From Eledone cirrhosa (Eukaryota), in the NCBI GenBank assembly GCA_964016885.1, contig OZ024748.1:25110001-25174000 (forward strand): 64,000 nt of DNA, in the 5' to 3' direction. Every line of letters begins with the position of its first letter. Positions within the stretch are counted from its first letter, which is position 1. Of the stretch, positions 93 to 29,132 are shown in pieces. The position numbers and the translations under genes are program-made. The notes under the pieces are model-generated. The model was not told the DNA's origin and made no database searches. It saw nothing but the letters and a program-made list of their open reading frames with translations.

Positions 93-236
93 TTACTTTT
101 GTTTTATCTTCTTTATCTTCATTAGTTTGTAAGGTACTCCAATTGCTGTGATTTTACTACCGTCTGACAACCGATACCACCCCTCTTGTGTATTGATGTA
201 GGTTGGAGTCAATACAACTGACACAAGAATTCGAAC
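93..236 (-). CDS. Last coding exon of secreted CpcT/CpeT-like protein (VRILVSVVLTPTYINTQEGWYRLSDGSKITAIGVPYKLMKIKKIKQK*)
   Basis: Polypyrimidine acceptor tttattttccag|GTTCGA at 237/236. Phase 0 matches the donor at 28605. The peptide resembles the C-terminal strands of CpcT/CpeT (..DRG....WG...PFEF.R vs ..EGW....PYKLMK). Confidence 0.8.
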   Translation of the reverse strand, partial: VRILVSVVLTPTYINTQEGWYRLSDGSKITAIGVPYKLMKIKKIKQK

Positions 237-1717
237 CTGGAAAATAAACAAAAGTAACAAAATAAACAAAAACAGAAAAAATAAAATAATAAAATTCAAA
301 AGAAAAAATGAATAAAGTTTCTTTTAAAGGGGATATTTGACAATATTACAATATTAACAATTGTTAGAAAATGTAGAAATTTCAGACGCAGAAAATAACT
401 GTAAACACAATCGATTGTTATAAATAATAGCTTAGAAAATTCCGGAATTTGAGAAGTACGAAGTTCCATTCTTTGTAGTGGCTCCTGGCCCCTTTTTCTG
501 TCTTTAAGATTTTTTTACCCGATTTTCTAAGCTATTCTTGATAGAAATCGACTGTATTTACTTTCTGTGTTTGAGATTTATAGTTTTTTTTTTTAATTTC
601 AATCAACTCCGAGTTTTACTTTTGAAATATTCAAAATGTTTTGTTTTGTTTTTTTAATTTTTGATTTTTAAGAAATGCTGCAAACCAACACTCATATAGG
701 ATTATTGAATTATTCCCCCCTCCGAAATTATTCCCACGAGGGCGCAACTCTAGCCAAGAGTGTAGAGTTTCACTTCCAATCAGTCTTCCCCTTTTCGATT
801 ATAAAACTTTTATCGGCCCCTTTTCTCTTTATCTCTCATCCATTATATTATTTTTATCCTTTTTAAAAAATATTAATACTTGTTCAAAATAAATAAATAA
901 TATATTTTGAGAATTAATATATTAAGAGATATTTTAGGAATGTTAAAATGAAAAAAATTTGCTAAAAAGTTAAGTCATGAAAATATTGTTGTTAACTCTT
1001 AACATCCTGTAATGATTCAGCAGAAAATATCTCAAAACGGATTTATTAATTCAAATGTTTATTGTATTTTTACTAAATTTGCAATATTAGAGTAAAGACT
1101 TAAATTTTTAATGATATGCAGCCACAGTGCTGTTTTTTTTAACCTTTCAAAGACGTTTTGCTAATGCAGTTTCATGTGATACAGGATGTTAGGATTTAAA
1201 GAATAAATCTGAGCGAAATCAAATTCTAAATCAGGTTGGAGTGTTTCCTCTTCAATCAAAACTATCTAGCTGTCAAGCCACTTATATCTATATATAATTT
1301 ATAGGTGAAATTCTAACTCACTAACCTAAATAATCGTTTCGTTATGAGGTAACTACTGCAGATACACTGAATTCAGAAATTATTTAACAGATTATCGAAG
1401 TTTTATATAGTTTCGTACAAGCTGACCATTATTATCAACAAGAAAAAGCCACAGATAAATAATAGATTGGAAATGCACATAGCAAATTGGCTACTATAAC
1501 GGCTCCACGCATGCGTATTTCAGTCACGTAAGGCAGAAGGAAATAACACATAAATCTTTTCTTTTTTGTTTTGAACCGCTTCCGTTTCACATTTGAAAAG
1601 AGGGTATAACCCTGAAATATTATGTTGAAATATACTGGGTAAAACATTACTTTGTTTTATTTGTCATCCTTCACCCTTTATATATTTGCCTACCACATTA
1701 TACCGGCTTTTTAAAAT

Positions 1718-2447
1718 TTATCAGTCATTTATTATATATCTCATAATACTTCATATTTACTATACAACTTATCAGTCATTTATTATATATCTCATAATAC
1801 TTCATATTTACTATACTACTTATCAGTCATTTATTATATATCTCATAATACTTCATATTTACTATACTACTTATCAGTCATTTATTATATATCTCATAAT
1901 ACTTCATATTTACTATACTACTTATCAGTCATTTATTATATATCTCATAATACTTCATATTTACTATACTACTTATCAGTCATTTATTATATATCTCATA
2001 ATACTTCATATTTACTATACTACTTATCAGTCATTTATTATATATCTCATAATACTTCATATTTACTATACTACTTATCAGTCATTTATTATATATCTCA
2101 CAATACTTCATATTTACTATACTACTTATCAGTCATTTATTATATATCTCATAATACTTCATATTTACTATACTACTTATCAGTCATTTATTATATATCT
2201 CATAATACTTCATATTTACTATACTACTTATCAGTCATTTATTATATATCTCATAATACTTCATATTTACTATACTACTTATCAGTCATTTATTATATAT
2301 CTCATAATACTTCATATTTACTATACTACTTATCAGTCATTTATTATATATCTCATAATACTTCATATTTACTATACTACTTATCAGTCATTTATTATAT
2401 ATCTCATAATACTTCATATTTACTATACTACTTATCAGTCATTTATT
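1718..2447. repeat. 51-bp minisatellite, ~14 near-identical copies
   Basis: Unit ttatcagtcatttattatatatctcataatacttcatatttactatactac; explains the 17-aa periodic ORF 1686..2456. Confidence 0.95.
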
Positions 2448-2484
2448 GCAAATTAGAATAACTTAACCAGAAGAAACACTCTAT

Positions 2485-3656
2485 GTCAGACATCTGTAGT
2501 ATAGAAGCTACCAGACTATGATCTGTAATATACTGTTATAGAAACTACCAAACTATAGTCACAGACATCTATTGTATAGTGTTGTTATAGAAGCTACCAT
2601 ACTACAGATACAGACATCTGTAATATAGTAGTGTTATAGAAACTACCATGCAATAGTTACATACATTTGTAATATACTGTTATAGAAGCTACTACACTAT
2701 AGTGACAGACATCTGTAGTATACAGTTGTTATAGAAGCTACTATACTATAGTCACTATGATCTGTAATATACTGTTATAGAAGCTACTACACTATAGTGA
2801 CAGACATATGTAGTATACAGTTGTTATAGAAGTTACTATGCTATAGTCACTATAATCTGTAATATACTGTTATAGAAGCTACTACACTATAGTGACAGAC
2901 ATATGTAGTATACAGTTGTTATAGAAGCTACTATGCTATAGTCACTATGATCTGTAATATACTGTTATAGAAGCTACTACACTATAGTCACAGACATCTG
3001 TAGTATACAGTTGTTATAGAAGCTACTATACTATAGTCACTATGATCTGTAATATACTGTTATAGAAGCTACTACACTATAGTGACAGACATCTGTAGTA
3101 TACAATTGTTATTGAAGCTACTATACTATAGTCACTATGATCTGTAATATACTGTTATAGAAGCTACTACACTATAGTGACAGACATCTGTAGTATACAA
3201 TTGTTATAGAAGCTACTATGCTATAGTCACTATGATCTGTAATATACTGTTATAGAAACTACCATACTATAGTGACAGACATCTGTAGTATACAATTGTT
3301 ATAGAAGCTACTATGCTATAGTCACTATGATCTGTAATATACTGTTATAGAAGCTACTACACTATAGTGACAGACATATGTAGTATACAATAGAAGCTAC
3401 TATGCTATAGTCACTATGATCTGTAATATACTGTTATAGAAACTACTACACTATAGTGACAGACATATGTAGTATACAGTTGTTATAGAAGCTACTATAC
3501 TATAGTGACAGACATCTGTAGTTTACAGTTGTTATAGAAGCTACTACACTATAGTGACAGACATCTGTAGTTTACAGTTGTTATAGAAGCTACTATGCTA
3601 TAGTCACTATAATCTGTAATATACTGTTATAGAAGCTACCATACTATAGTCACTAT
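2485..3656. repeat. Minisatellite of alternating ~46/49-bp units (~95-bp dimer)
   Basis: Repeated tatagaagctactacactatagtgacagacatctgtagtatacagttgt / tatagaagctactatactatagtcactatgatctgtaatatactgt. Confidence 0.9.
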
Positions 3657-3878
3657 GTTGTGTCATAACAACACATTAACAATGACAGTGGTGTCTATAT
3701 ATTGTTTATTCTATGAAGCAGCAAGTTAGTAGTAGCTTCAGATCTTAATCTTGTGTTAACGTTTCTTCTTTTGCTTCAAAAACAATGTTTCGACAGCTTC
3801 TGCTTGGTTTTGGGGGGATTTATGTTTTTATTTGTCGTTTTTCATAAAACTCAAGATGAAATGTTATTATTTTTCTTC

Positions 3879-4054
3879 TGTGGATTGGCAGTATCGGTAG
3901 AGGGTCGCACGCATAGAGTTACGGCCCTTGCCATTCTGAGTTCAAATCCCGCCGAGGTTAACTTTGCCTTTCATCCTTACGGGGTCGATAAAATAAAATA
4001 CCAGTAATGTACTGAGTAATTGCTGGCCTTGTGCCAAAAGTAGAAACAATTATT
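3879..4054 (+). mobile_element. tRNA-derived SINE family 1 (octopus-type)
   Basis: A-box-like tggattggcagtatcggtagag, B-box gagttcaaatccc, body gccgaggttaactttgcctttcatccttacggggtcgataaaataaa, tail ggccttgtgccaaaagtagaaacaatt; many dispersed copies in the window. Confidence 0.85.
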
Positions 4055-4194
4055 TTTCTTCTGTTAAATGTGGAAATGTATATTCTGGTTATCTACGTAG
4101 GAAAATAGAAAGGGAATATGATAGCTGAATGATTTGGCAGTTAATATTTAGAACAGGAAACAAACTGTCACTGCGCCATTCCAGAAGGCCAGGT

Positions 4195-4720
4195 ATATCT
4201 ATTATCACCATTATCACCATCATCATCACCATCCTTCTCCTTCTCCTCCTCCACCCCATCATCAACATCATCATCACCATCCTTCTCTCTGCTCCTCCTC
4301 CCCATCATCAACATCATCATCAACATCACCATCCTTCTCCTCCTCCCCATCATCAACATCATCATCAACATCATCACCATCATCATCAACATCACCATCC
4401 TTCTCCTCCTCCCCATCATCAACATCATCATCCTTCTCCTCCTCATCATCATCATCGTGATCAACCCCACCATCAACATCATCAACATCATCAACATCAT
4501 CAACATCATCATCATCATCAACCTTTTACATCTATTTTCCATGCTAGCATGGGTTTGACAGGTTGTCACCTTCTGAGACTATGACTAATCAGATGACCAC
4601 GTCTTGCTCATACGTACCGTTTTTGACTTGGCTTCTACAGCTGGATGCCCTCCCTAACGCCAACCACTTGACATCGTGTACTGAGTGTGTGGGTGTGTTT
4701 TATTGTGACACCGCCACTAA
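4195..4720 (-). mobile_element. (CAT)n-tailed retroposon 3' end (RTE-like/SINE)
   Basis: (CAT/CAC)n tract followed by ttccatgctagcatgggtttgacagg...ggatgccctccctaacgccaaccac; related copy at ~57320-57500. Confidence 0.55.
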
Positions 4721-5045
4721 CACATGACAGGATGGACTGGATGTCTTTTGTATTATAGCACCAGCACCACCACTGTATAGTGTGGGCTATGTACACATTT
4801 GTGTGTACATGTATGCCTAAGGGAGAGGGCGAACACACAGAGAGATACATATATAGTTCAAGGAGACAATAAACAGAGGTACAAAAATTCTTATTAGTTT
4901 CACGCTTTATATTGGAAAGAGGAAAGAAAGTTCGACATTTCGGGCTTAAGCCCTTCCTTTATCAGGAGTACAAATAGAGACAGGATCACAATGGAGAAAC
5001 AGAATGAATGTCATATTATGTATATATATATATATATATATATGT

Positions 5046-5080
5046 ATGTACGTTCTCCCCCGCCGCCCCCCTCTCTCTCG

Positions 5081-5122
<42 letters not shown>

Positions 5123-5154
5123 CGAGAGAGAGGGGGGCGGGGGAGAACGTACAT
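5046..5154. repeat. Inverted repeat centred on (TA)n
   Basis: atgtacgttctcccccgccgcccccctctctctcgc-(TA)n-gcgagagagaggggggcgggggagaacgtacat. Confidence 0.9.
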
Positions 5155-5300
5155 TGAGTAAAACAAGTGAGTAGTGGCTTTTTTTCAATGTTGGAAATAT
5201 CACAAAATATGAAGATATAATCTCCATCATTAGCGGCAAAGAATTTAACTAAGGTTTACTTACATACACATACATGCACATACGTATGTATATATGTATG

Positions 5301-5361
<61 letters not shown>

Positions 5362-6807
5362 GTAACGTAACTATCTTGAAGTGTTTCCAGATTTCGAAAA
5401 TGTTAGCGCGTATTCATTCATACAGTTGTTTTTATTACATGGGATATATTTACCTACCGTGACGATAACACCTGGAAGAAGACATCAAACATGAGATATC
5501 ACATATCAAAGAAGACAACTAAATCAGATACAATCGGGTATATTCGGTTATAATCGGTTATAATCGGTTATAATGACTACTTTTTCTGATTTAGATGCAA
5601 ACATTACTACTCACTTCCAACAAAATGTCCGACCACAACACTTTTTGTCTCACATCTGTTTTAACCCTTTCATTAACATTGTTTTAATGAAATACACTGC
5701 CTATGTGTTTCAGTTAATTTTGAAATTAACCAAACCTTTGGAAGAATTATGAAAAATAATTAAGTTTTTCATTAGTAAACTGATATTTAGAACATTACTA
5801 AAGTGAAATAAAAGTATGATGAAATACTAAGGATAAATATTTTAAAATAACCAGTTTCGTATCATAAAGCCAAGGTCGGTTTCAAACGGTTTGTTATCAA
5901 AATGGTTAAAAAAAACCTACAACGTAGTATACTTTTCAGCTTCTTGTCTTTTCAATATGTTTACCCCTTTAATCCTAAGAAATATACCTCTCACAATGTA
6001 TTGATCAACTCATTGCATTGAACACAAATTTAATCATAAGCTAAACAAGCTACAACTTAGGTAGTCACAATCTTAGGTTCTCTATCTTACATTCTTTCAT
6101 CTTAGGCCCTCGCAATCCACACAAAGCAATTAAACAAAGGACCTCTAAACTTTCTATGACTCAGAGTCACACAAAGTCTTATTCCGACACAGCTCCCATA
6201 GTTAAGAAAGTTGATAACATTGTCACGCAATTTCCTCGATGAGATAAATCCGTTTCTCTGTAAACCTTGTTCGGGAGCAGTCAATGTGAACCCTGAATAA
6301 TTTTAATATTTGATCTAAACAATAGCTTAGAAAATCAGGAAAAATACTCCGATTGACAGAATTCCTGCAATTTCTAAGAATTTCAAATTTAACCAAATGC
6401 TTCGATTTATCATATTTACAATGTTGTCTATATCTGTGTTTTATATCGGAAACCGATGTAAACACCAACCTCGATTTTATACTACAAGACTCTGTAAACG
6501 TTTGAAAACGTTATAAAAATGTATAAAAATGTTTTACATATAAAGTATCACGAAAATAACTATGGTTACAGACCTCTGCTCAACAGAATCTAATCAACTT
6601 CCTTAATATCTCCGTCTTTTATTGTTCTTATTTCTACAAATATCATATATTTATGAATTCTTTATAAATAACAATAGCCTACTTGCCAAACTATTTTCCA
6701 GACGATATTTTCCCTGATGTAATATAGTCATTCCATAAATGTAATGTTTTCCTTCTCTTCCAGGTATCGTAGCTGATAACTTATCTAATGGTAGATTTCA
6801 CTGATAA

Positions 6808-6811
<4 letters not shown>

Positions 6812-6876
<65 letters not shown>

Positions 6877-6911
6877 ATGCTTTTTTATTACTATTGTTGT
6901 CTTGCTGTCTT

Positions 6912-6980
<69 letters not shown>

Positions 6981-7481
6981 TTGTGTGTGTGTGTGTGTTT
7001 GTGTATATATGTATGTATGCATATATGTATGTGTGTGTGTGTATGCATGTATGTATGTGTGTGTGTGTATGTATGCATGCATATATGTATGTGTGTGTGT
7101 ATGTATGTATGTATGTATGCATGTATGTATGTGTGTGTGTATGCATGTATGTATGTGTGTGTGTATGTATGCATGCATATATGTATGTGTGTGTGTGTGC
7201 GTGTATGTATGTATGCATGTATGTGTGTGTGTATGTATGTATGTATGTGTGTGTATGTATGCATGCATGTATGAATGTGTGTGTATGTGTGTATGTATGT
7301 ATGTATGTGTGTGTGTATGTATGTGTGTGTGTATGTGTGTATGTATGTATGTATGCATGTGTGTGTGTATGTATGTGTGTGTATGTATGTTTGTATGTGT
7401 GTGTATGTATGTATGTATGTGTGCGTGTGTATGTATGTATGTGTGTGTATGTATGTATGTATGTATGTATGTATGTATGTA
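6812..7481. repeat. Compound (TA)n/(TG)n/(TATG)n microsatellite
   Basis: Directly visible. Confidence 0.95.
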
Positions 7482-8472
7482 CAGACAATGGCACAACTCA
7501 GATAGTTTTTGTTTGAATTTTCCATATCAGGAACATCAATTAACTTTATTCAATAGTCTTTATTTGCCAATTTTTGATAACAATATCAGACATTTCGTCT
7601 TTTGATAACAATATCAGATATATCGTCTTTTGATAACAATATATCTATATATACAAAGTAGAGTCGAAATCAGTGTTGCAGTATATGTACACACTTTATT
7701 GGCATATTATAATTGTTTCGCCATCGATCAGCTCTGAGTACTATCAAACTGACGGAGCTCGACACATCGAAACTGCACATATAAACTCGCATATCTGACG
7801 AGAAGTCGAAAAAGAGTCGGACCCCATCATTTTGATCATACCGTGAGCTGATCGATATTGAAATAATTGTAATATGCCAATAAAGTTTGTACATAGGCTC
7901 CAACACTGACTTCGATTTTACTTAATCTATTTACACTCTACACACTACAGTCACCTTAACTCGGGAATACAACCTACACGAAACGGACCTCGTAACAGTA
8001 TTGAGTTCTTCGAACGGCGCGCCGCCTGTAACCTTAGTTACACACCTAACATGTGTCTGTGTGTGAGACAGGTTTTCGCACACTTTCTGCCTACTAAATT
8101 TCATTCACAACACGATTGATTATCCCTGAGGCTTCAGTAAAAACAAAACACTTCCTCAAGATGTCACATTGTGTAACCACGCCATTGTGAAGCGAACGTC
8201 TTAACCATAGAATTGTGTTTTCTATGACTGGATAACATTCCTAATGCCAACCACTTTACTCACAATCACCAGATTCAGTAGGGTTTAGTTAGAAGTCAGA
8301 ACCACTTTGAAGATGTTCAAAAATATGTTTAATACGAGATTTAGTAACTGGAATCTGAAGCCGAAGAGAGGTTGCGGTAATGACATCTTTAGAGAAGTCA
8401 AGTGTTTCAAGTAGAAGATATGAAAAAGAAGAAAAAATGTGGACTGTAGTTCATTTCCTCTACCAACTGCAG

Positions 8473-8640
8473 ACGGTGAATTGGCGGAGTTGCTAGAGCT
8501 TTTGACAGAAATACCTTGGTTCCGGCTATTTACCTTCCGGTGTTCAAATCACACCGTGGTCAACTTTGTCTTTCGTCCTTCCGGGGTAGATAAAATAAAG
8601 TACCAGTCAAGTACCGGTGTCGATTTAATCGACTTTTCTG
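8473..8640 (+). mobile_element. SINE family 1, diverged copy
   Basis: ggtgaattggcggagttgctagag...gttcaaatc...caactttgtctttcgtccttccggggtagataaaataaagtaccagt. Confidence 0.75.
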
Positions 8641-9637
8641 TCGCCTTATCATTACTTTGAATTTATGGAAATTATTACATTAAAAACAAATTATTTGCTT
8701 TAAAAAAGATCTCCGGAAGTTGAAATGAAAAGGACGGTTTCTGAGAAATACAGAGGTTACAAGAACAGCTAAATCAAACTTTTTATGCGACTGTTCCACT
8801 CATTAACAGAGAAACTGGATATCAGTTCGGAAAAGACATTAAGGGAATAGAAAAAACTCAAAGATCCAAAATAGAGTAACAAATTAGATAACAGAGAAAG
8901 GGATCAAAAAATCGCTCTATTTTCTGTGAAAGACGTGAAGACAAAATAAAATTAAAATAAAACTGAAGCTACATATTTACTAAATACAATGTTCGGTAGA
9001 GGAGTTTAAAAAGAAGAGGATACAAAAACAGGTCTTATGTCTAAAACCCCTATTAACATGAGGCTATTCACAGGCGGGCATAAAATAAAATATAAAATTA
9101 ACAGAATACTGGGAAATACATAGACAAGTTTGAGGTAGATTTATAGGAGGATTAAAAAGAAACATAACATAACATGGGATCACCCTTCAAGGAACAATAT
9201 ACAGTATAAAAATAACAGTGAGCAAAATTGAGAAGACATTGTAAGAGAATCACCGAAGCAGTAAGAACTGGAGTCAGCTAGGCAAAAGAAAGTTATCGTT
9301 GTTAAGAGAAACGTATCGTTTCAGTATGTAACCATATGGACAATAAATAGATATGGAATTCTATAATTAGAGAACTAGACACAATAACTGATTGGCTGAG
9401 TGAATTTAGCCAACCGTAAATGCCAAATCTTAGAATTACAGACCTCACAAAGACACACCTATACATTGGAATATATGTGCAAAACATAATAGATTAACAT
9501 CAGACAAGAATATTATATTTATAACAGAATAACAAAATGCCAAGAATAAAGTAATGGAGATATATTATTAATGGAAAAGTCAGGAGAAGGGCAGGAAACA
9601 TAAATTACCCCCCTTTTCACGACCTGAGAGACTAGTA

Positions 9638-9907
9638 CATTAGTTCTTAACCTGGGATGCGAGATTTAGCGGGTTCGAAGAGAGTTCCAGAAAACAACTT
9701 TTTCTTACGTTTTGATTGGTTTTCTGTTATTTTCAAAATTTGTATTTATTAATCATAGTAGTTAATCAATTAAATAGTAGCAGCTAAGTAGCTGTTAATT
9801 TGACCTGAAAATTCAAATTATTTTGTCTTATGCGTTAGGCCTAAGGGTGCGGGTGAAATTTCAAAATCTCAAGGGATGCCACGATAGAAAAAGGTTAAGA
9901 ACCACTG
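9638..9907. mobile_element. hAT (Charlie-like) MITE
   Basis: TIRs cattagttcttaacct / aggttaagaaccactg; 8-bp TSD gactagta / aactagta (7/8 match, central TA). Confidence 0.75.
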
Positions 9908-16233: not shown

Positions 16234-16268
<35 letters not shown>

Positions 16269-17100: not shown

Positions 17101-17288
17101 ATAATAATTGGTTTAAAGATAGTGACATATCTTCATGTTATAAGTTCGGTGAAGATATTAATATTATTGATATTAATGATACTCCGGATAAAACCATTGA
17201 GTGCTTTTAATCTGTTGTAAATTAACTTCGTTGAATAATCAATAAACCAAATAACTCCTTGTTTATATATATATATATATAGATATAG

Positions 17289-17414
<126 letters not shown>

Positions 17415-17417
17415 ATG

Positions 17418-18511
17418 CGTGGGGGCTTCAAAATGTTCGTGAGAAAAGTACATAACTAAAGATCATGTGCAGGGATTTTGAACTCAATGCACCTGTATGT
17501 TCTCACATTAATGTGTCATGACATGTTCTAACATAAATGCATGTTGCAACGCGGCGCCGCCAGTCGGAAGTCAGTAACCACTCCAGCAACATAGCCTCCA
17601 TCAAAAATTGAGGCTAGGACAAACATCAAATTCATGGTGAAGCTAGGGTGGCAGAGCAGCCAAATCATTGATGCTCTGAAGCAAGTCTATGGGGACAATG
17701 CCCCAAAGAAATCAACAACCTATAAATGTTTAAGTTGTTTACGAAGTAGAAGAGATGAGATTGAAAATGATGTCTGCAGTGGCAGGACATCCAGATCAGT
17801 CTGTGTGGAAAATATCGATACTGTTCACGACCTAATTGAAAATGATAGGCGAATAACCACTGAATCAGTAGCCGACACACTCAACATCTCCATGGGTTTT
17901 GCAATTCTGGTGGAGAGTTTAGGGCTGAGCAAGCTTTCCGCTGGATGGGCCCCAAAGCTGTTGCGCACAGATTAGCAACAAACAAGGGTAGATCTTTCGA
18001 TGGAAATTTTGGGTATTTCGCTGGTTGACTTCCTCGAGAACAAGAGAACAATTGCAGCTGCATATTATGAAAGGTTTTTGAGTAAACAGGTCAAGAAAAT
18101 CGCGGAAAGACACCGGGGAAAGCTGCATCGGCGCATCCTCTTCCATCATGACAATGCGCCAGCTCACGGCGCTCTACAGACACGAGCTGTGTTGCACGAA
18201 TTTCGATGTGAAATCATCCGACATCCACCTTACAGCCCCGCTTTAGCCCCATCCGACTTCTTTTTGTTTCCAAACTTGAAAAAATCATTGAAAGGTACCC
18301 ATTTTCCATCAATTGAAGATATAAAAAAAAGCTTCTTTGACATGGTTTAAATCGCATGGCCCCAAGTTTTACACAGATGGACATAAAGGTTGGTATCAAT
18401 GCTTGCAGAAGTGTATTGACTTGAATGGAGCATATGTGGAAAAATAAACATCGTAACTTAAACCGTCTTTTTCAACTTTCCTTTTTGTACGAACCTTTTG
18501 AAGCCTCCCCG
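17418..18511 (+). mobile_element. Mariner transposon (irritans subfamily, Hsmar2-like), internally deleted and defective
   Basis: TIRs cgtgggggcttcaaaatgttcgtgagaaaag / ctttttgtacgaaccttttgaagcctccccg+TA; motifs WAPKLL, HHDNAPAH, HPPYSPALAPSDFFLF. Confidence 0.92.
17591..18447 (+). pseudogene. Mariner transposase pseudogene
   Basis: ORFs 17634..17975 and 18000..18350 are in frame across a TAG; the segment with the first catalytic Asp (TGDETW) is deleted at MEIL|GISLVDF; frameshift in the poly-A near 18325. Confidence 0.88.
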
Positions 18512-18813
18512 TATATATATATGTATATATATGTACATACGTACATACATACATACATGCATACATACCTGCATACATACATACATGCATACATACATAC
18601 ATACATACATACATACATACATACATACATACATACATACATACATACGTACATACATACATACGTACATACATACATACATACATGCATACATACATAC
18701 ATACATACATACATACATACATACATACATACATACATACATACATACATACATACGTACATACATACATACATACATACATACATACATACATACATAC
18801 ATACATACATACA
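18512..18813. repeat. (TACA)n microsatellite
   Basis: Directly visible. Confidence 0.95.
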
Positions 18814-18861
18814 TGTCAAAAAAATATACTCGAAATTAAGAGAAAGAGAAAACATACATAC

Positions 18862-19462
18862 ATACATGGTGGCTGCCAACTCGTTTTCGAGTACGGCCAC
18901 TACTTTATATCCATGTAGGATGCGCTGAACGAGTGTGACTTTTTAGTCCAGCCAGCGACTTGAAAACTCTGGTACAAACACTACACTTGTGACAATTATT
19001 GACACATAGTGCTGGGCCCATGGTACCATGTGATGACAAGTGCAGAGAGATCTCCAGATATAAAGCAATGCCTGTGCCGTGAAGCTTTTATAGTGAGCAA
19101 AGGCACTGCACAAAGCCAGTCCCACTCTCTTAACCAAGATGATATTTACCAAAAAGAAGAACAAGTCAACATCATTGGATACCATCAGGGTTGCAGGTGT
19201 TATATCAGAGTTTTCCTTCTCCTAGAATTCTGCCTTGACAAAGTCTAAGGGGTCATCTCTCCCGGTGATTTTGGATGGCCATTGACTCTTAAGAGCTCAT
19301 TTGCCCTTTGACAGGTTTTGTTTTTAGTCCTGCAGGATGTCCAAAGTCCCTCCTCACCAAGAAACCTTGGTGGGATTGCCAGTTTAGTCGCCAACGACCC
19401 GACCATGAGACAGGTTGTACTGGGATACATTTTACCAGTAGCACCAACTGGTGACCTGACAG
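18862..19462 (-). mobile_element. RTE-like retroposon 5' segment flanked by (TACA)n
   Basis: Minus strand contains tctaggagaaggaaaactctga, which I recall from RTE 5' UTRs; near-identical copy at 22251-22724 and diverged homolog at ~62900-63015. Confidence 0.5.
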
Positions 19463-19784
19463 TATACATACATACATACATACATACATACATACATACA
19501 TACATACATACATACATACATACATACATACATGCATGCATACATACATACATAGCTGGCACCTTCAAAATTTGCAAAACATTCTTGCGATTCAAAGGAT
19601 AACAATTTCTTTTCTTTTACCATCTTATCACCAGGAAGGTGGCCGGTCAAAAATGTACTCGAAATTAAGAGAAAGAGAAACATACATACATACATACATA
19701 CATCATACATACATACATTAATATATATATATATGTGTGTGTGTAATAAACAACACAATATAACTATTGCACCAGAAGGAAAAT

Positions 19785-19855
19785 TTCCTTCTGATGAACG
19801 ACTTCGGACGCCTCTGTTGGGGTTGGCTGTCTTCGTGAAACCTTTGGTAATGGAA
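19785..19855 (+). ncRNA. Type I hammerhead ribozyme
   Basis: ttcctt-CTGATGA-ACGA[long loop]TCGT-GAA-ACC.ttt.GGT-A-atggaa; GUA triplet; stem I 5/6 paired. Confidence 0.65.
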
Positions 19856-19945
19856 TAATTATATTTGGTTGTTTATTACATAATTAAATTTCTCTGTACT
19901 ATACATAAAGCACTCTTCTTTCCTTTATCTTTTTCACGGAAATAC

Positions 19946-20009
<64 letters not shown>

Positions 20010-20014
20010 CACAC

Positions 20015-20090
20015 TCCAGAAATAGCCGTCGAAACGGCTTGAGCTCTGCCGTCGGGGTCATACTTTTTCCTATTTCCTATTTCCCACATA
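20015..20090 (+). mobile_element. Element B fragment
   Basis: tccagaaatagccgtcgaaacggcttgagctctgccgtcggggtc between (TA)n tracts. Confidence 0.7.
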
Positions 20091-20099
20091 TATATATAT

Positions 20100-20148
<49 letters not shown>

Positions 20149-20165
20149 CATACATATATATATAT

Positions 20166-20262
<97 letters not shown>

Positions 20263-20744
20263 ATATATATATACATATATATGTATATATAAGAATCCTT
20301 ACTCGTATCTTTTCACAGGAAATCTTAGCTTTCAAATAACCAAATAACCAAGTTTCATTTAACTGCTGAAACCGTATAAGCTAGAAGTATACCGTGTTCA
20401 ACTCTAACTAAAATGTAACACTGTAAAATATACATTTGTGCTTTATTCAATATCCGTATTTCCTTTATTCTCGAGTGTACCAAATGTATAGAAGTACTGA
20501 ACAAGGATGTTTTAATTTGCAGTTCGCAGAGGAATCGGTCTTCTCTGATTTCACATAGGAAGTTAAAGTTTCAGTCATTAACGAAACAATTAATACCTCA
20601 TACCAGACGTTCCTCTTCAGAGCCCAGAGATTTGGTAGCTATTTCTAGCAAGTCGAACGACCAAATAATGTCCACTGCTCATTAGCATAATGTTAATTAT
20701 TTAATTTTTTAACGCCAGAACACCATAACTTTAAACATCCGTAT

Positions 20745-21015
<271 letters not shown>

Positions 21016-21030
21016 TATATATATATATAT

Positions 21031-21217
21031 ATAGGAACGAGTAGGACCCCGACGGCTGAGCTCAAGCCGTTTCTGGACGTCCAGAATTAGCCGTCGAAAC
21101 GGCTTGAGCTCAGCCGTCGGGGTCCTACTCGTTTCTATTACCCACTCTACTACCCTAAGTATTGAGTACTTTGGTGCGTTATGGTCCACCTGGTTCCTTA
21201 CCACATTTCCTTCGTTA
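21031..21217 (+). mobile_element. Fold-back element B, third copy
   Basis: Hairpin with palindromic centre tctggacgtccaga and the same tail as 15857-15932. Confidence 0.75.
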
Positions 21218-21327
21218 TACATGTATGATTATACATATGTACACATATATACATAGAAACTTACGTGCATATATCTATATGTATATATATATACGATATA
21301 TTAACAGATATTTATAAAACCATATTT

Positions 21328-21390
21328 ATTTCATTATACATATTTCAAGGACACCAAGTCAAATTATGGTGCGCTTTCATCAGATAAAAT
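21328..21390 (-). ncRNA. Minimal type I hammerhead ribozyme, homolog of 17041-17100
   Basis: ATTTTAT-CTGATGA-AAGCGCACCA.taatttgact.TGGTGTCCTT-GAA-ATATGTAT-A-ATGAAAT. Confidence 0.72.
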
Positions 21391-21857
21391 ATAATATAGA
21401 TCAGTTTTATAAATAAATATTAACATACCCTTAAAGTATGCGACCATTTCTGTTGGAAGCTCCCGGATTTTACTCCAATAATTTATTTTTACTCCAATAA
21501 TTTGTTGAGTGCTTTATATCAGTTATAAAAATATTTGCTTGTATCCCAACAAATTAGATATAACTTCTACATATATATATATATGTGTGTGTGGGGGGTG
21601 TTTGGGTGTGTGTAATCAGTAAACCAGATTTCCCCTATAGGCACACGCTCAGATTTCTACAGTAGAGGAAATCAAATAATGTTGAATACATGTCGTTCTT
21701 TGAGAAATTAGCAATATACAAGAAAGGAAACGATTTAATGGAAATTCTAACTAGAAATTGAAACGTGATCTCAGTTGGTATGTGTTTGTTTCCTGTAGTA
21801 AACGAGTATGTTAACTTTAAAAAGACTCTCATAACTTGTTAACTCTTGTATGAAAAG

Positions 21858-21960
21858 GGCACGGGCAATCTTTTTTGAGCACCGTTCCGCATAGAATGTG
21901 GCTCTTCATAAGGCCGACCCATTAAAAATATTCAAGGCAATTTTAAAATTTGGCTTGTCA
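21858..21960 (-). mobile_element. hAT-like non-autonomous element fragment
   Basis: Reverse complement of the body shared with 26605-26745 and 54919-55250. Confidence 0.5.
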
Positions 21961-21971
21961 TTCTGAAAGCC

Positions 21972-22092
21972 AAACGGCGAATTGGCAGAGTCATTAAAAC
22001 GACAAATAGAAGGCTTTGCTGTATTCATTTCAGTTCTCTGCTTTCTGTGTTCAAATTCCATCGAGGTGTACTTTGCCTTTCATCTATTCGAT
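21972..22092 (+). mobile_element. SINE family 1, 3'-truncated
   Basis: ggcgaattggcagagtcatt...gttcaaattccatcgaggtgtactttgcctttcatc. Confidence 0.7.
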
Positions 22093-22179
22093 ATGTATGT
22101 GTGCGAGAGTGTGTGTATGCATCTGTGTGTATGCATGTATGTAAGTATTTATACATACATACATACATACATACATACA

Positions 22180-22210
<31 letters not shown>

Positions 22211-22250
22211 GTACATACACACACACATACACACATACATACACACATAC

Positions 22251-22724
22251 ATACATGGTGGCTGCCAACTCGTTTTCGAGTACGGCCACTACTTTATATC
22301 CATGTAGGAGAACCCCTACCGATGCGCTGAACGAGTGTGACTTTTTAGTCCAGCCAGCGACTTGAAAACTCTGGTACAAACACTACACTTGTGACAATTA
22401 TTGACACATAGTGCTGGGCCCATGGTACCATGTGACGACAAATGCAGAGAGATCTCCAGATATAAAGCAATGCCTGTGCCGTGAAGCTTTTATAGTGAGC
22501 AAAGGCACTGCACAAAGCCAGTCCCACTCTCTTAACCAAGATGATATTTACCAAAAAGAAGAACAAGTCAACATCATTGGATACCATCAGAGTTGCAGGT
22601 GTTATATCAGAGTTTTCCTTCTCCTAGAATTCTGCCTTGACAAAGGCTAAGGGGTCATCTCTCCCGGTGATTTTGGATGGCCATTGACTCTTAAGAGCTC
22701 CTTTGCCCTTTGACAGGTTTTGTT
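22251..22724 (-). mobile_element. Near-identical second copy of the 18862-19322 segment
   Basis: Almost identical sequence (ORFs 19009..19248 and 22411..22650 nearly the same); flanked by (TACA)n. Confidence 0.85.
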
Positions 22725-24883
22725 TGACATACATACATACACACATACATACATACACACACACATACATACATACATACACACATACACACATACACAC
22801 ACACACATCCACACACACACACACACACACACACATTCATACATACATACATACATACATACATACATACATACATACATACATACATACATACATACAT
22901 ACAGTATCCCACGCACAATACTACAGGATTCTAAATGTACATAATATACAATAATACTATATTTAATAGAGAAAAATGTTTTTTTCTCTTGTATAAAAAC
23001 GAAACATCTATTAAAAAAATGTTTTTATTATTTTTGTACAAACTAACAGAATTTAATGCAAGTTTCTTTCTAATTGTGCAGTTGCCGGTGGTATTTTGCA
23101 AAGAAGATTTTCTGTGCATATTATCTAACTAAAAAAACTACAGTGCAGCATGTTGCAGTTGCAGCAAGATGCTTATAGCATAACTATTCAGACCTTACAA
23201 AGCTTTCAGTCTAAAAATACTGAAATACATATTACACTGATGTTAGTATGTACGTTATCGGGCGTGATACCTGTTAGCGAATGTGCGTGCGCACGCCTCT
23301 ATGCGCCTGTGTGTGTGTGTGCGTTTATGGACATATGCGTCTGTGTGTGTGGATATATGCGTCTTTGTGTGTATTTGTGTTTGTGGGGATGTACATTGGT
23401 GTTTATATTTATATTTTTATGTAAACATCACGTGATTTGAAACTGACAGTGGAATTTTGAAAATTGAATTTAATTAGTAACTTCAATGTATTTTTTTAAT
23501 TTTTTTACTACAATAAATAGTCCAATAATAACAGAGGAATAAAACCCTAAAACGGAAAAAATGCATGCTAATGCCCATTGTTTTCCCGTTCTAGGAGTTA
23601 TGCTCTGTTATTATCAGACTATACGGCCAAGTTACTAATTTAATTAAATTTTATACTTTTATAGTTTTACTTATATTTTCATGTTAATATTTATACGTTT
23701 ATATTTTCAGTTTTGTGAACGTTAATAATAAAATGAAACTATTTTATTGCAAATATGCTTTCAAGTATATTTACAAGAAAATAATCTAATATAGGCGTCA
23801 GCACTGCTGTGTGATTATAAAGTTTACTTTGCAACTCTGTGGTTTTGAATAAGATCTCACTGCCTGGCAGCTTGGTTAAGTGTCTTCCACTAAAAGTTCG
23901 GGCATACCAATGCCTTGAGTGGGAAGTTTGGTAGACTGAAACTAATTTTGTACAAAATATTACATTAAAAAACAAAATCATAAATCGCCGGACAAGTTGC
24001 ACCCAGTTTTAGTTCAATTTTGTGAAATAATATGAAAGCACAAGTTGGGGAGGCGGTGTGGAAGTTTGGGGAATGGAAATAAGGAATTTGACTGAAGAAA
24101 ATCATTTACAAGTTGAGTTACACAAGGATAATTACATATTGAAAATGGTGCATATTCATTCCCAATTGATGAATATAACCTTGACCAGGAGAAGGTGTTG
24201 TTACCAGATTATGTCCAACGTTCATTGGGAGTTTCGACCCTGAATCACATCATCCTCTCGTTGTTAGGTCAGCAATGGTTGCCAAATCAATGTCCATCTT
24301 CTTCTCCTGGTTTCCAACTTGCTTATCTCCTATCTCCTGCTCCATAACCAACAAGCGTAACAAACGATAGTAGTTACTCTTGTTGGTTATGGAGCAAAAA
24401 ATTGAATGGTTCTTAAGAGTTTGTTCTTTCTCTTCGAATATACCATGACAATTATTTAGAACTAAAACTAAACAAATCCATTCTTTTTCACATAACATGC
24501 AGGAAAAGGAGACATGTCTTAGGTTGTGTATAAAAATACACTTGGTGTTGGGTACAGTACAAACACAGAGCATACAACACACACTATACATAACTCTCTA
24601 ACAAGATTTACTAATTAATATTATTTCTACTTTAAAATTTTTGTGGATGGACAGGGCGGACAAATGTAAGTGAACAAAATAAAACATGAAAAATAATAGG
24701 AAATGATTCAAATACCACGAGGGAAAATACGACAAGAACGCACACAACTTGCAAATAGAAGCTTACCTGGCGTCCAATCAGATTGAGAACGTTATCCTTG
24801 AAAGAGAATTGTATTAATAACATTACATACAGGAGTATGTATGCATACATACATAAACACAGACATACAAACACATAATACAT

Positions 24884-24918
<35 letters not shown>

Positions 24919-24963
24919 CCTACACATATGCATATATAATAATATATATGTATGTATATACAC

Positions 24964-25011
<48 letters not shown>

Positions 25012-26604
25012 GTAGACAGCCAGACATGGCTGAGATGTTACTAGTAAAGACCAGTAGAAACATCATTCAACTTACTATTCTATACTTAAGAAAAGTAGAA
25101 TGTAGATAGCATAAGGATTCTCTGGCCTGATTAAGCTTAACCGTAGGGCATAAATCCTAATAATAATAATAATAATAATAATAAAATGCTTTCTTTATTG
25201 AAAATATTTTTAATTTTTTAGTCAAATGAGATTGAAACCCTACCTCCAATCTATACATACATAAAGCATGCATGCATAGACACACCAGAACTACCCACAC
25301 GGCCACTTATAGACCTAATGATGATAATATGTATGTGTGTGGTTGTGGACGGAGTATTGTTGTTTCTTTAATAATAGTAGAAAGTGAAAAGAGAGGGATT
25401 TGTTGTTTACTAACATCTCAAAAGTGGACAGAGACAGTTTATTTTGCCAACTTTATTGATGTGGGTGAAGATGGTTGGGAAAAGAGAGGAGACAGATTTA
25501 CTAATATTTTCTGCTCTCAGACAGTTGGAACTAAGTCTTAAGTGTTATTATTGTTATTATATCGTAACAATAGTTGTTTATGTGTAATTATATTTCTAAC
25601 TCAACGTAGACAAGACGTATTCGTGCTCATTAAAATATCCAATCAATAAAATCAATGAATTGACCTTATAAAATCATAGAAATATGAGATAGTATGTGTA
25701 ATGTAATATCTGAATCTATCGATGGACCTCCATCGGTTTCGACGATGAGGGCTCCAAGTGTTGCGATAAACGGAACAGTCTGCTCGTGAAATTAACCTGT
25801 AAGTACTTTGCTGAGAATTTCACTGACACGTGTACCAGTAACGTAATTCAACGCTAATGGATTTCAACAGACATAAAACCTTAACTAATATCCCCTCAGA
25901 AATTATAACGACTGCACCTTCCTTTTCCGTCTTCACCCTATTTTATAAGCTATCTTATAGCATTTCCGTGCACGAGTACACCACTCTTTATTTTAACTTT
26001 ATTTTTTCAGCGCTTCGTAAAAGTCCGAGGGATCGGCTACTTATACACGATGTTTGTTGATAAAAATCAGTATCCCATCGGTGGTCTTATTGAGCGTGTC
26101 TATTTCAACAATTTAAGTGTTCAATAACTGTGTTGTATCTACCAGAACTATAGTGTATAAAGTGTATAAACACACCTCCTCTGCTAATGTTTATGTTATA
26201 ACAATTAATCATACTTTACCAGCCAATAATCTCCTACTTAAGTATAAAAGAACTACACATGACAAATCACTTACTGGTAGTTTCCGAAAAATAAATCTCG
26301 CGAGATCCTGGTAGTACCTTTCATCTTTCTCTCCTTTATTCAGTTTTAGGAAACAATTGTTTGTAAGTGTAAACCAATATAGGCAAACTGCGGCCTGTTT
26401 GGCTTTTTCGATGCCACACCTAATTTCAAAATTTAAGGGAGACTCGGTTGCAATTTCTAGCAGGTTGAGTGATCACATTGTGGCTTCTTTATTGGCTCAT
26501 GTTTAACACCATCAATACCATTAAAGAGTCCACAAAAGTTGTAGATTCTTATCATGTAGATAGACAGGGGAGTTATGAGATTCACCAAACTGCCTATATA
26601 CTAC

Positions 26605-26745
26605 CCATGGGCAAACTCCGGCCCGTTTGGCTTCCTGAATAGCACGCCTAATTTCAAAATCACCTTGAATTCTTTAGTAGTGTGGCCCGCCTTATGATGA
26701 GCCATCTAATGGGACCCATTGCTCGAAAAAGGTTGCCCATGTCTG
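26605..26745 (+). mobile_element. hAT-like MITE
   Basis: TIR catgggcaa ... ttgcccatg; body shared with 54919-55250 and 26375-26435. Confidence 0.6.
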
Positions 26746-26767
26746 GTGCAAACTATAGCAATATCAT

Positions 26768-27207
26768 GATCTCTACTTTAGGCATAATGTTAGTAAATTT
26801 GTTTCTTTTTTTTTGGGGGGGGGGGGGCAAATCGACTAAATCGATTCCCAGTACATGACTGGTACTATATTTTATCGATCCCGGAAGGATGTAAGCCAAA
26901 GTTGACTTCGGCGGGATTTGAATTCATGACATAAAGAGCTGAAATAAATATTGCTACGTATTTAGCAGATTCTCTGAAGACTCTGCCAAACCATCGCCAA
27001 GACTAATGGTTTCTAAGACCAATAACTTATTTGAGGGAGGCGATTAAATCAACCCCATTATATGACTAGTATTTTATTTTGTCGATCATGAGAAGGATGA
27101 AAGGTAAAGTTGACCTCGGCAGAATTTGAACTCAGAACGTAAATAGCCAGAACAAATACTACTAAACGTTTGGCCGACGATCTAGCGACTCTGCAGATCC
27201 ACTGCCT
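26768..27207 (-). mobile_element. Two tandem SINE family 1 copies
   Basis: Two successive aaagttgac(t/c)tcggc...atttgaa motifs. Confidence 0.75.
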
Positions 27208-27316
27208 TAAGCTATAGTAACATAAATGGAGGATATGAAATAAATTAAGAAGAGGTAACCAAGATAACCTTCATGACCAAAGGTTAATCCATGCTTTGTA
27301 ATCGTTTCTGATGTAA

Positions 27317-27575
27317 TGTATAAGGTTAGATATCGGGGAAGTGATCAGTTGGTTTAACGTATGTATAAGGTTAGATATTGGTGAAAGTCATCAGTTGGTT
27401 TAACGTATGTATAAGGTTAGATATTGGTGAAAGTGATCAGTTGGTTTAACGTATGTATAAGGTTAGATGTTGGGAGAAGTGATCAGTTGGTTTAACGTAT
27501 GTATAAGGTTAGATGTTGGGAGAAGTGATCAGTTGGTTTAACGTATGTATAAGGTTAGATGTTGGGAGAAGTGAA
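27317..27575. repeat. 46-bp minisatellite, ~5.5 copies
   Basis: Unit gtataaggttagatgttgggagaagtgatcagttggtttaacgtat. Confidence 0.9.
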
Positions 27576-27629
27576 CAGTTGATTATTGGACTGGTACTTT
27601 ATTGTAGTGACATTGAAAGGATGAAAGGT

Positions 27630-27865
27630 GGAGGGTTTTCGGTTTATGATCTTAAAGTCTTGAGTTCGATTCCAGGCGGCACGTTTTGTCCTTGAGCAAA
27701 CACTTTATTTCATGTTGCTCTAGTTAACAGAGCTACTAAAAACTACATTGAACCCTTGACTCAAACTGAACTGTTCAGATTCTTGCGCTTAAACTTTACA
27801 AGCAGGCTGTTCTGTCGTTGATCGAACAACTGGAACACTCGTTGTCGAAACCGACGGAGGTCCAA
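27630..27865 (+). mobile_element. tRNA-derived SINE family 2 (CORE-like)
   Basis: B-box gagttcgattcc, tgtccttgagcaaacactttatttcatgttgctc, tail ggaacactcgttgtcgaaaccgacggag. Confidence 0.65.
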
Positions 27866-28144
27866 CACTTTAAACACTATTAATAGATAAGTTTTAGAGT
27901 GTTGTCAACATATGTTTGTAATGAATGGTTTCAATGATAGAAACACTAAGCTACTATATCACTGGCCAAACATAGAAAACATAGTAGGCATCGCTAACCA
28001 ACAACAATATGTCTTTATTTGATTCCAGCATTCAATAGTTTTTTGTACACAAGTTTCTTAACTTTGAAACAGTAGAGCGGTAAGCTATAAGCTGTTAAAG
28101 TGTGTAGCATGTGGTGCGGTAAATAAATATATATATATATATAT

Positions 28145-28415
28145 ACACCAGGTCCGAACAAAAAGGAACCAAGCTACCACTGTCACTGTCTCTGTCTCTC
28201 CCGCTCTCCCCATCTCTGGTCCATGCGCTGGCCTCCCCGCGGCCCCGTGGATAGAGTAGAGAAGGCGTTTTTCCGGAGTATGGTGAAGGAGACACGCTAG
28301 AAGAGCCATTCCAGCTCATGCGGTTCACACCTGCGGGTGGCCAACTCTGTGTCGATGTTGGTGAGTAGGGAGGTGACACTAAGGCCAAGGAAACCAGAAG
28401 ACTCCGCTCGAACAA
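28145..28415 (-). mobile_element. CRE-like LINE 3' fragment (RLE C-terminus) ending in (TA)n
   Basis: GC-rich island translating ESSGFLGLSVTSLLTNIDTELATRRCEPHELEWLF*RVSFTILRKNAFSTL, resembling the E.LG.....L..L......G.PRE..FLFQRLS....RGNA tail of CRE elements. Confidence 0.55.
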
Positions 28416-28418
28416 CCT

Positions 28419-28525
28419 GAACTACTTCGTGTTTAAACTTTGTTCTGTAAATCAACGACTGAACTCCTTCATGTTTAAATCTAGTTCTGTGAATCAACAC
28501 TTGAACTACTTCATGTTTAAACTTT
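28419..28525. repeat. 42-bp tandem repeat, ~2.5 copies
   Basis: gaactacttcatgtttaaa... repeated. Confidence 0.75.
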
Positions 28526-28604
28526 TTCAAATACATTTGGTAGCAGTTTATATCTGTTTTTAGTATAAAAAATAAAAAATAAAAAATTCAAAAAAGTGTC
28601 TTAC

Positions 28605-29132
28605 CTTTTCTCCTTTCATATTTGCAACACACTGAGGTCCAGTGGTGGCTGCAAAAGTTCGCATGCCGAGTCGCCTCCAAAACATATCACATTCTCTGTT
28701 GGAAAACAGTTCTACATTGGTCATGTTGTGTAACTGAATTCTCGCTGGGCGAGAGTTCCTAATGTCACCTATACCTTCCAATTTGTAGACTTCCATCCGG
28801 ATAGAATTTTGAACTGGATCGAGGACGAAGCTGTATATCTTTTGCTGAACTGGCTTGAGTGATTTGTCCATAAAATGTTCCACATAAAAGTTTGTTGTGT
28901 CATCTTCCAAAGATGGCAGCTGAATTGATGTATAGCGTGAGCGAAAGAAAATATGTCGTTCATTTGAAGGCACAGCATTGGACAAGTAAGCGTCATTGTG
29001 GTATTGTTTTAGATTGCTATACTCTCCGGGAAGTATTCGAGCCAAGATTCGCAAATCTCGCCTCATAGACGCTAGCGTCACCTGTGCAATGAGGATGAGA
29101 ATGAAGCATATTATCAGTTTGAACTCAGCCAT
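28605..29132 (-). CDS. First coding exon (176 aa) of secreted CpcT/CpeT-like protein
   Basis: ATG at 29132; signal peptide MAEFKLIICFILILIAQVTLA; motifs LPGEYSN.KQ, HI, FYVEH, KP.QQKIYSF, ECDMFW, GPQC resemble CpcT/CpeT (LAGEFSN.EQ, HI, FYVEQ, PYR.R, GCD..F, G..C); donor AAG|GTAAGA at 28605/28604. Confidence 0.85.

What the first reader, a model, noticed from the sequence alone, without database searches (positions are those of the whole stretch)
93..29132. Secreted CpcT/CpeT (phycobilin lyase)-like protein gene in a probable cephalopod
Seen: two exons (29132-28605 and 236-93) splice in phase 0 across a 28,368-nt intron into a 223-aa ORF with a hydrophobic signal peptide and two Cys separated by 19 residues. 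The ORF track shows them only as unrelated pieces. Established: CpcT/CpeT (T-type lyases; plant CRUMPLED LEAF) are beta-barrels that bind bilins and attach them to phycobiliproteins. Inference: animals have no phycobilisomes, so a secreted, intron-containing homolog may be a tetrapyrrole/pigment-binding protein, relevant to cephalopod coloration or light biology, and may be an old horizontal acquisition. The PYR.R motif reads PVQQK here, suggesting altered ligand binding or lost lyase activity.
Basis: partly seen in the sequence, partly recalled or inferred. Interest (0 to 1): 0.75.

Follow-up and report, generated by a model that had tools for sequence, protein, structure and literature searches.

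The report
Mollusc secreted bilin-lyase-fold fusion protein
This octopus gene is real and spliced but over twice as long as first read: it encodes a likely secreted protein, shared by snails, clams and cephalopods, that joins a barrel predicted to fold like the pigment-attaching enzymes of cyanobacteria to two domains otherwise known from secreted bacterial proteins, and it likely carries a small molecule rather than attaching pigment.

Summary
The two exons, their junction, the hydrophobic leader, the Cys pair and the CpcT/CpeT match are real (Pfam E 2e-12; assembled contigs of 3 of 4 runs join the exons). The 223-aa product is wrong: its stop lies inside a splice donor at 96-95, and all 4 contigs run on into further exons 56-66 kb beyond the window. 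It is single-copy here and has relatives in cephalopods, gastropods and bivalves. It groups with leader-bearing CpeT-like proteins of non-photosynthetic bacteria and a probably eukaryotic clade, not with cyanobacterial lyases. Several lyase pocket residues are changed. Best reading: a secreted small-ligand carrier (0.5), not a lyase; bilin as ligand about 0.3; a cephalopod coloration role is unsupported. The family is in databases as uncharacterised; I found no paper on it, and one 2024 paper says such homologues are absent from animals. New variant of a known kind.

The parts
28605..29132 (-). First coding exon (176 codons): hydrophobic leader plus most of the CpcT/CpeT barrel
   Evidence: only match of its kind in G000
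29070..29132 (-). Predicted signal peptide, about residues 1-21 (cleavage site inferred)
   Evidence: hydropathy; similar leaders in most homologues; SignalP not run
28839..28853 (-). P94-K98, aligned to CpcT P64-R68: Y65 to V, R66 to Q, R68 to K
   Evidence: CpcT numbering through Acaryochloris CpcT, which aligns without gaps to 4O4O
28629..28691 (-). Cys148 to Cys168, equal to CpcT C116/C137; predicted disulfide
   Evidence: both Cys in 35 of 35 mollusc-type rows and 11 of 11 cyanobacterial rows
237..28604 (-). 28,368-nt GT-AG intron of the isoform that skips micro-exon 1; repeat-rich
   Evidence: junction in 3 of 4 contigs
24767..24796 (-).
   Evidence: AG/GT flanks; 9 of 10 residues identical to the Argonauta protein P0004; homologue included in contig X1 and P0077; inclusion in this species not seen
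97..236 (-). 140-nt coding exon: last strands of the barrel, with E194 (183-185) at the place of CpcT D163
   Evidence: 18 of 19 places that differ in relatives' contigs are third codon positions
95..96 (-).

Best explanation
The locus is a single-copy, spliced, mollusc-wide gene for a 504-531-residue protein made of a predicted signal peptide, a barrel predicted to fold like CpcT and two VirK-like domains, and it likely works outside the cell as a non-enzymatic carrier that holds a small hydrophobic ligand in the barrel while the VirK-like pair would dock it on a surface or partner. Shown: gene structure, splicing, conservation, domain homology. Predicted: fold (model of the 86% identical Argonauta orthologue), secretion, disulfide. 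Inferred: ligand carriage (about 0.5), a bilin or other tetrapyrrole as the ligand (about 0.3), docking by the VirK-like pair (about 0.3), release of the barrel by furin-type cleavage when micro-exon 2 adds an R-x-R-R site (about 0.3).
For: Gene model and junctions. Purifying selection: 18 of 19 differences at third positions; 444 of 515 columns identical to Argonauta. Fold: pLDDT 87.6, pTM 0.56, which fits independent domains; residues 23-238 match CpcT 4O4O at Z 20.8, rmsd 2.4 over 187; 392-514 match VirK 5XTA at Z 14.3, rmsd 1.8 over 117; the two repeats match each other at HHalign 98%. The next fold neighbours are small-molecule-binding barrels: nitrobindins, S-type lyase, a haemophore (Z 8.4-9.5), fatty-acid-binding proteins (Z 6.5 and below). 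Framework residues N20, Q23, E54, P64, C116, C137, P181 and an acid at D163 are kept, while Y65, R66, R164, W175 and G176 are not. Precedent: plant CRL keeps bilin binding without being a lyase (PMC11606413, passages).
Against: No ligand, tissue or localisation data. The basic residues recalled as bilin-propionate anchors are most eroded in cephalopods (R66 is Q in 6 of 6, against R or K in 18 of 20 other group-A mollusc rows), so a bilin may not bind. The Glu at the D163 position is present in all full-length rows of the 13-row mollusc alignment, which fits catalysis as well as binding. VirK proteins have no known activity (PMC6617341, passages), so the docking step has no direct support. Furin sites are not general: 3 strict sites in 713 linker residues, in only 2 of 13 rows. 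The own protein was not folded, only its orthologue.
Confidence: 0.5

Rival explanations
1. It is a secreted enzyme: the barrel uses the conserved Glu (E194, at CpcT D163) for acid catalysis on a small substrate other than a phycobiliprotein.
For: An acid at this place in most groups: D in 11 of 11 cyanobacterial rows, D or E in 26 of 36 long-type rows, E in 22 of the 23 mollusc-type rows that reach it. A barrel cyclase (OlmO, Z 8.9) is among the fold neighbours. Single copy and strongly conserved.
Against: The partner Tyr (Y65; role recalled) is V, A or S in cephalopods and mostly F elsewhere; R164 and W175-G176 are lost. No substrate is suggested by any context.
Confidence: 0.2
2. The barrel no longer binds a small molecule; the protein is an extracellular matrix, mucus or microbe-binding factor acting through protein or glycan contacts.
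For: Basic mature protein (pI about 9.6) and very basic linker; plant CRL function appears uncoupled from bilin binding (PMC11606413); VirK proteins are secreted by host-associated bacteria (PMC554113, PMC6617341).
Against: Inward framework residues of the barrel are conserved across bacteria and molluscs. The Lottia homologue's gene number was not found as a protein entry in 5 supplementary files of one shell proteome (one species, one paralogue).
Confidence: 0.2
3. One reading: a stand-alone 223-aa pigment-binding protein tied to cephalopod coloration or light biology.
For: An in-frame stop follows read-through of the donor at 96-95 and an AATAAA lies at 78-73, so a short intronic-polyadenylation form is possible; barrel-only paralogues exist in heterobranch gastropods (P0027, P0031, P0033).
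Against: 0 of 4 contigs read through the donor (contigs drop rare forms); all 4 full-length cephalopod proteins found are 514-522 aa; relatives occur in bivalves and gastropods; cephalopod chromatophore and ink pigments are ommochromes and melanin (recalled).
Confidence: 0.07
4. It is a true T-type bilin lyase acting on an animal protein or on dietary phycobiliproteins.
For: Pfam and fold match; other molluscs keep F or Y at 65 and R or K at 66.
Against: Outside the branch that holds the cyanobacterial and cyanophage lyases (100/100; AU p 0.045 against grouping with cyanobacteria, borderline); the DRG and WG motifs, invariant in 11 of 11 cyanobacterial rows, are gone; predicted secretion.
Confidence: 0.03

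Closest known systems
Cyanobacterial CpcT/CpeT T-type bilin lyases (Nostoc CpcT, PDB 4O4O/4O4S; cyanophage CpeT 5HI8; Pfam PF06206)
   Same: Profile match, predicted calyx barrel (Z 20.8), Cys pair, N20/Q23/E54/P64 framework, acid at 163
   Different: Leader peptide, introns, two fused VirK-like domains, changed Y65/R66/R164/W175/G176, separate branch of the tree
Plant CRUMPLED LEAF / rice SSG7 (PDB 6LIX)
   Same: Eukaryotic CpcT-fold protein (Z 16.0) with a job other than phycobiliprotein ligation
   Different: CRL is a plastid-envelope protein that keeps PYRQR-like and DRG/WG motifs (alignment); no plant row was in my trees
VirK family (Pfam PF06903; Legionella Lpg1832/NttG, PDB 5XTA)
   Same: Predicted fold of repeat 2 (Z 14.3, rmsd 1.8); Pfam over cut-off in the orthologue; secreted
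   Different: Here two tandem copies fused behind a CpcT barrel in an animal; the solved VirK is a single 120-residue chain; activity unknown in both
Leader-bearing 'long' CpeT-like proteins of non-photosynthetic bacteria (Runella, Emcibacteraceae, Acidobacteriota) and an unnamed sequon-rich clade (P0049, P0107-P0118)
   Same: Nearest relatives in sequence and tree; leader peptide; same barrel
   Different: They carry a different ~100-residue C-terminal beta domain that does not match the VirK-like profile; automatically named lyases, function untested

Membership tests
CpcT/CpeT domain family (PF06206) | Score over Pfam cut-off | tested here: met
   47.7 bits against 21
CpcT/CpeT domain family (PF06206) | Calyx-shaped antiparallel beta-barrel | tested here: met
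   Model of orthologue P0004: Foldseek E 1e-8, Z 20.8 to 4O4O
CpcT/CpeT domain family (PF06206) | Conserved Cys pair (C116/C137) | tested here: met
   C148/C168
T-type bilin lyase (enzyme) | P-Y-R motif with Y65 and R66 (invariant in 11 of 11 cyanobacterial and 4 of 4 phage rows; roles recalled, the structure paper was not held) | tested here: not met
   V95 and Q96
T-type bilin lyase (enzyme) | D163-R-G and W175-G176 motifs | tested here: not met
   E194-G-W; T206-A207; only the acid is kept, as Glu
T-type bilin lyase (enzyme) | Grouping with cyanobacterial and cyanophage lyases | tested here: not met
   Separated by a 100/100 branch; AU p 0.045, borderline
T-type bilin lyase (enzyme) | Leaderless cytoplasmic protein | tested here: not met
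   Hydrophobic leader (prediction by hydropathy only)
T-type bilin lyase (enzyme) | Bilin binding and transfer to beta-Cys153/155 of a phycobiliprotein | not testable with these tools
   Needs assay; defining activity from PMC10254012 and PMC10452541 (passages)
T-type bilin lyase (enzyme) | Homodimer (recalled) | not tested
   No complex job was run
VirK family (PF06903) | Score over Pfam cut-off | tested here: met
   Orthologue P0004 31.2 bits against 23.7; also over cut-off in P0011, P0017, P0022, P0026, P0047, P0013. An exon-by-exon search of G000 found no match; the domains are split by introns
VirK family (PF06903) | Fold of 5XTA | tested here: met
   Repeat 2: Z 14.3, 117 of 120 residues; repeat 1 by homology to repeat 2 and profile match to 5XTA, E 0.0035
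VirK family (PF06903) | Biochemical activity | not testable with these tools
   Undefined for the family (PMC6617341)
CRUMPLED LEAF | Plastid outer-envelope protein of plants | tested here: not met
   Octopod nuclear gene with different architecture

The most novel reading that the evidence does not exclude
This is the first animal branch of the T-type bilin-lyase fold: an ancient mollusc-wide secreted bilin or tetrapyrrole carrier, assembled from two bacterial-type modules (CpcT barrel and tandem VirK), that handles the bilin and porphyrin pigments of mollusc shells, ink and skin (pigments recalled), with cephalopods retuning the pocket and using two micro-exons to reshape the barrel hairpin and switch on proteolytic release.
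Probability: 0.15. Interest if true: 0.82.

Novelty: new variant of a known kind. Interest (0 to 1): 0.52.

Why it matters
CpcT/CpeT-fold proteins are described from cyanobacteria, their phages, algae and plants, and a 2024 paper states that CRL homologues are not present in animals (PMC11606413). Here the fold sits in a conserved, spliced gene across three mollusc classes, fused to VirK-like domains that were described as restricted to plant-associated bacteria (PMC554113) and still lack a function. A soluble secreted animal protein gives a direct handle on two open questions: what non-photosynthetic CpeT-like barrels bind, and what VirK domains do. If the ligand is a bilin it would supply a carrier for mollusc tetrapyrrole pigments. 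The proteins are already in databases as uncharacterised entries with these Pfam hits, so the news is the description, not the sequence.

Tried and rejected
Bacterial contamination or processed copy: rejected; introns, 60.6-Mb contig, one locus, orthologues. Paralogues in G000: none found with P0001, PF06206 or the divergent Haliotis protein (best candidates only). Bacterial CpeT-VirK fusion as donor: the N-terminal segment of metagenomic P0065 gave HHalign probability 29% to the joint repeat profile (above 60 of 60 shuffles) but 2% and 0.1% to the single-repeat profiles, no hmmsearch hit, and pLDDT under 55 with no VirK fold match: inconclusive; no relative locus found. Genomic linkage in bacteria: in 301 Bacteroidota genomes CpeT in 24, VirK in 4, none shared; neighbours of three long-type loci read by eye showed no common theme. 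The long-type C-terminal domain had no fold match above Z 6. NCBIfam and single-sequence PDB search gave nothing. Run search listed no holder on record as RNA and no tissue. ESM Atlas hits were 0.77-0.84, leads only. Earlier findings of this scan: none in 3 look-ups. The gene does not appear among 12 published Octopus bimaculoides transfer candidates, judged by their labels and by the primers of the one uncharacterised candidate (best 13 and 15 of 21 bases); that screen needed E 1e-30. A cephalopod venom preprint has none of five terms in its main text (supplements closed). The CpcT and phage CpeT structure papers were not held, so residue roles are recalled. No complex prediction was run.
Full report
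1. Observation. The exon at 29132-28605 (-) reads 176 codons from ATG to a GT donor and matches Pfam CpeT at E 2.2e-12, over the cut-off. The exon starting at 236 has a pyrimidine-rich AG acceptor. Laying four runs from four studies on 50-250 gave one contig each (1.9-2.5 kb). The runs are assembled contigs whose RNA status is a guess by the tool, but they join exons that lie 28 and 56 kb apart in the genome, which is what spliced RNA gives.

2. Correction of the gene model. The best hit among 1.84 billion representatives is a 515-aa Argonauta hians protein, P0004, which maps to further exons at G000:C8:25053809-25043655. Six constant exons give 504 aa without internal stops; all internal borders are AG/GT. 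Two frame-keeping micro-exons are optional. The other, 51 nt at 25102763-25102713, is included in O. sinensis P0075 and P0076, skipped in all four contigs, and adds an R-x-R-R site to the linker. Inclusion of either in this species is inferred, not seen. The coding span is 95.5 kb. On the exon at 236-97, 18 of 19 places that differ in relatives are third codon positions. One locus only was found in G000. A short 223-aa form by intronic polyadenylation is not excluded (AATAAA at 78-73) but has no support.

3. Anatomy. AlphaFold2 on P0004 (86% identical; 49-row alignment) gave pLDDT 87.6, low only at micro-exon 1 and the linker. Residues 23-238 match CpcT 4O4O (Z 20.8, rmsd 2.4, 187 aligned), CRL 6LIX and phage CpeT 5HI8 (both Z 16.0); residues 392-514 match Legionella VirK 5XTA (Z 14.3, rmsd 1.8, 117 aligned). 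Residues 257-388 are a second copy of that domain (HHalign 98%; Pfam VirK over cut-off). The only hydrophobic stretch is the N-terminus; the mature chain has pI about 9.6.

4. Range. Of 63 hits, 60 match Pfam CpeT; two were dropped as low-complexity noise and one (P0047) matches VirK only. I looked up 30 of the 63: 16 clusters carry mollusc names (cephalopod, gastropods, bivalves), 2 carry bacterial names (Runella; Emcibacteraceae and kin), 12 have no organism. No non-mollusc animal was named, but 33 hits were not looked up and my tools do not cover annotated eukaryote proteomes well, so mollusc-only is not shown. Both VirK-like repeats were found in 16 of 106 stored proteins, 11 of which helped build the profiles. 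Gastropods also have a second three-domain group and a barrel-only group.

5. Relationship. In a 100-row quick tree the 35 mollusc-type rows form one group (SH-aLRT 96) on the side of leader-bearing CpeT-like proteins of non-photosynthetic bacteria. In a 66-row careful tree (44 rows of the first set left out as near-copies, fragments or long branches; 10 added) molluscs are 100/99, and the cyanobacterial, cyanophage and short bacterial proteins lie behind a 100/100 branch. Forcing molluscs with cyanobacteria is rejected only at p 0.045. The sister of molluscs in the careful tree is an unnamed clade (92/96, not starred; not recovered in the quick trees) whose proteins have 2.5 times the expected N-glycosylation sequons, against 1.0 in bacterial rows, so they are probably secreted proteins of microbial eukaryotes. 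Bacterial ancestry of both modules is therefore likely, but a direct bacterium-to-mollusc transfer is not shown; an older eukaryotic acquisition with losses, or a eukaryotic donor, fits as well. The trees are unrooted and hold no plant row.

6. Pocket. Using Acaryochloris CpcT as a numbering proxy for 4O4O, the octopus keeps N20, Q23, E54, P64, C116, C137, P181 and has Glu for D163; it has V for Y65, Q for R66, K for R68, G for R164 and lacks W175-G176 (the H33 region has a register ambiguity). The roles of Y65/D163 in catalysis and of the arginines in holding bilin propionates are recalled; the paper was not held.

7. How it most likely works. Shown: a conserved, spliced three-domain gene. 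Predicted: secretion, barrel and VirK folds, disulfide. Inferred: the barrel binds a small hydrophobic ligand without ligating it, since it lacks lyase motifs and a phycobiliprotein substrate (established: animals have none; not searched here), as CRL binds bilin without lyase work (PMC11606413). The VirK-like pair would provide docking; the micro-exons would tune the hairpin and allow cleavage. Odds: carrier 0.5, enzyme 0.2, matrix or microbe-binding factor 0.2, short coloration protein 0.07, lyase 0.03.

8. Literature. Nine full-text searches ran; I saw listings only, and none showed a paper on animal CpcT/CpeT or CpeT-VirK proteins; several were swamped by the abbreviation CPET or the surname Virk, and the library lacks most subscription papers. 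Read: PMC11606413, PMC6617341, PMC554113, PMC10452541, PMC10254012 (passages); PMC4094399 (term search of text and 5 supplements); PMC6011040 (whole text, not supplements); 10.64898/2026.02.02.703354 (term search of text; supplements closed). Gene tables in unseen supplements may list this gene. The proteins are in NCBI and UniRef as uncharacterised, with Pfam hits precomputed.

9. Verdict. New variant of a known kind; interest 0.52, because function and origin remain untested.

Noticed in passing
window 17595-18350 (+): Tc1/mariner-type transposase remnant in two frames inside the intron; second piece matches DDE_3 at E 1e-5, under cut-off.
   Followed up: partly
window 36164-36622 (+): GIY-YIG endonuclease-like fragment (E 2e-4, under cut-off), probably a Penelope-type retroelement remnant (inferred).
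   Followed up: partly
window 38386-43099: Two long minisatellite arrays with strong strand skew that give long repetitive open frames.
   Followed up: no
window 18.4-19.6 kb and 21.9-23.0 kb: Near-identical segment present twice within the intron (matching frames at 18943-19221 and 22345-22623).
   Followed up: no
window 15541-16185: Palindrome-like element: similar frames on both strands.
   Followed up: no
window 29435-29133 (-): Possible acceptor at about 29436 and 303 nt of possible 5' UTR with 11 ATGs; contig X8 has about 400 nt upstream of the start codon, so a further non-coding exon may exist.
   Followed up: partly
P0049, P0053, P0107-P0118: Unnamed clade of leader-bearing long-type CpeT proteins with 2.5-fold sequon excess, probably microbial eukaryotes; possible sister of the mollusc group.
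   Followed up: partly
P0056; L020 4869-6522: Long-type and short-type CpeT domains fused in one protein (P0056) and adjacent in an Acidobacteriota genome, suggesting the two types act together in non-photosynthetic bacteria.
   Followed up: no
P0065 residues ~25-155: N-terminal segment weakly like the VirK-like repeat in front of a long-type CpeT; inconclusive.
   Followed up: yes
L025-L047: CpeT-family genes in 24 of 301 Bacteroidota genomes, a non-photosynthetic phylum.
   Followed up: partly
P0006 (Pinctada): Model ends in LDL-receptor class B repeats in place of the rest of repeat 2; probably a fused gene prediction.
   Followed up: no
P0027, P0031, P0033, P0057: Fast-evolving barrel-only paralogues, the named ones in heterobranch gastropods including Aplysia, whose ink holds algal phycoerythrobilin (recalled): a good first target for a bilin-binding assay.
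   Followed up: no
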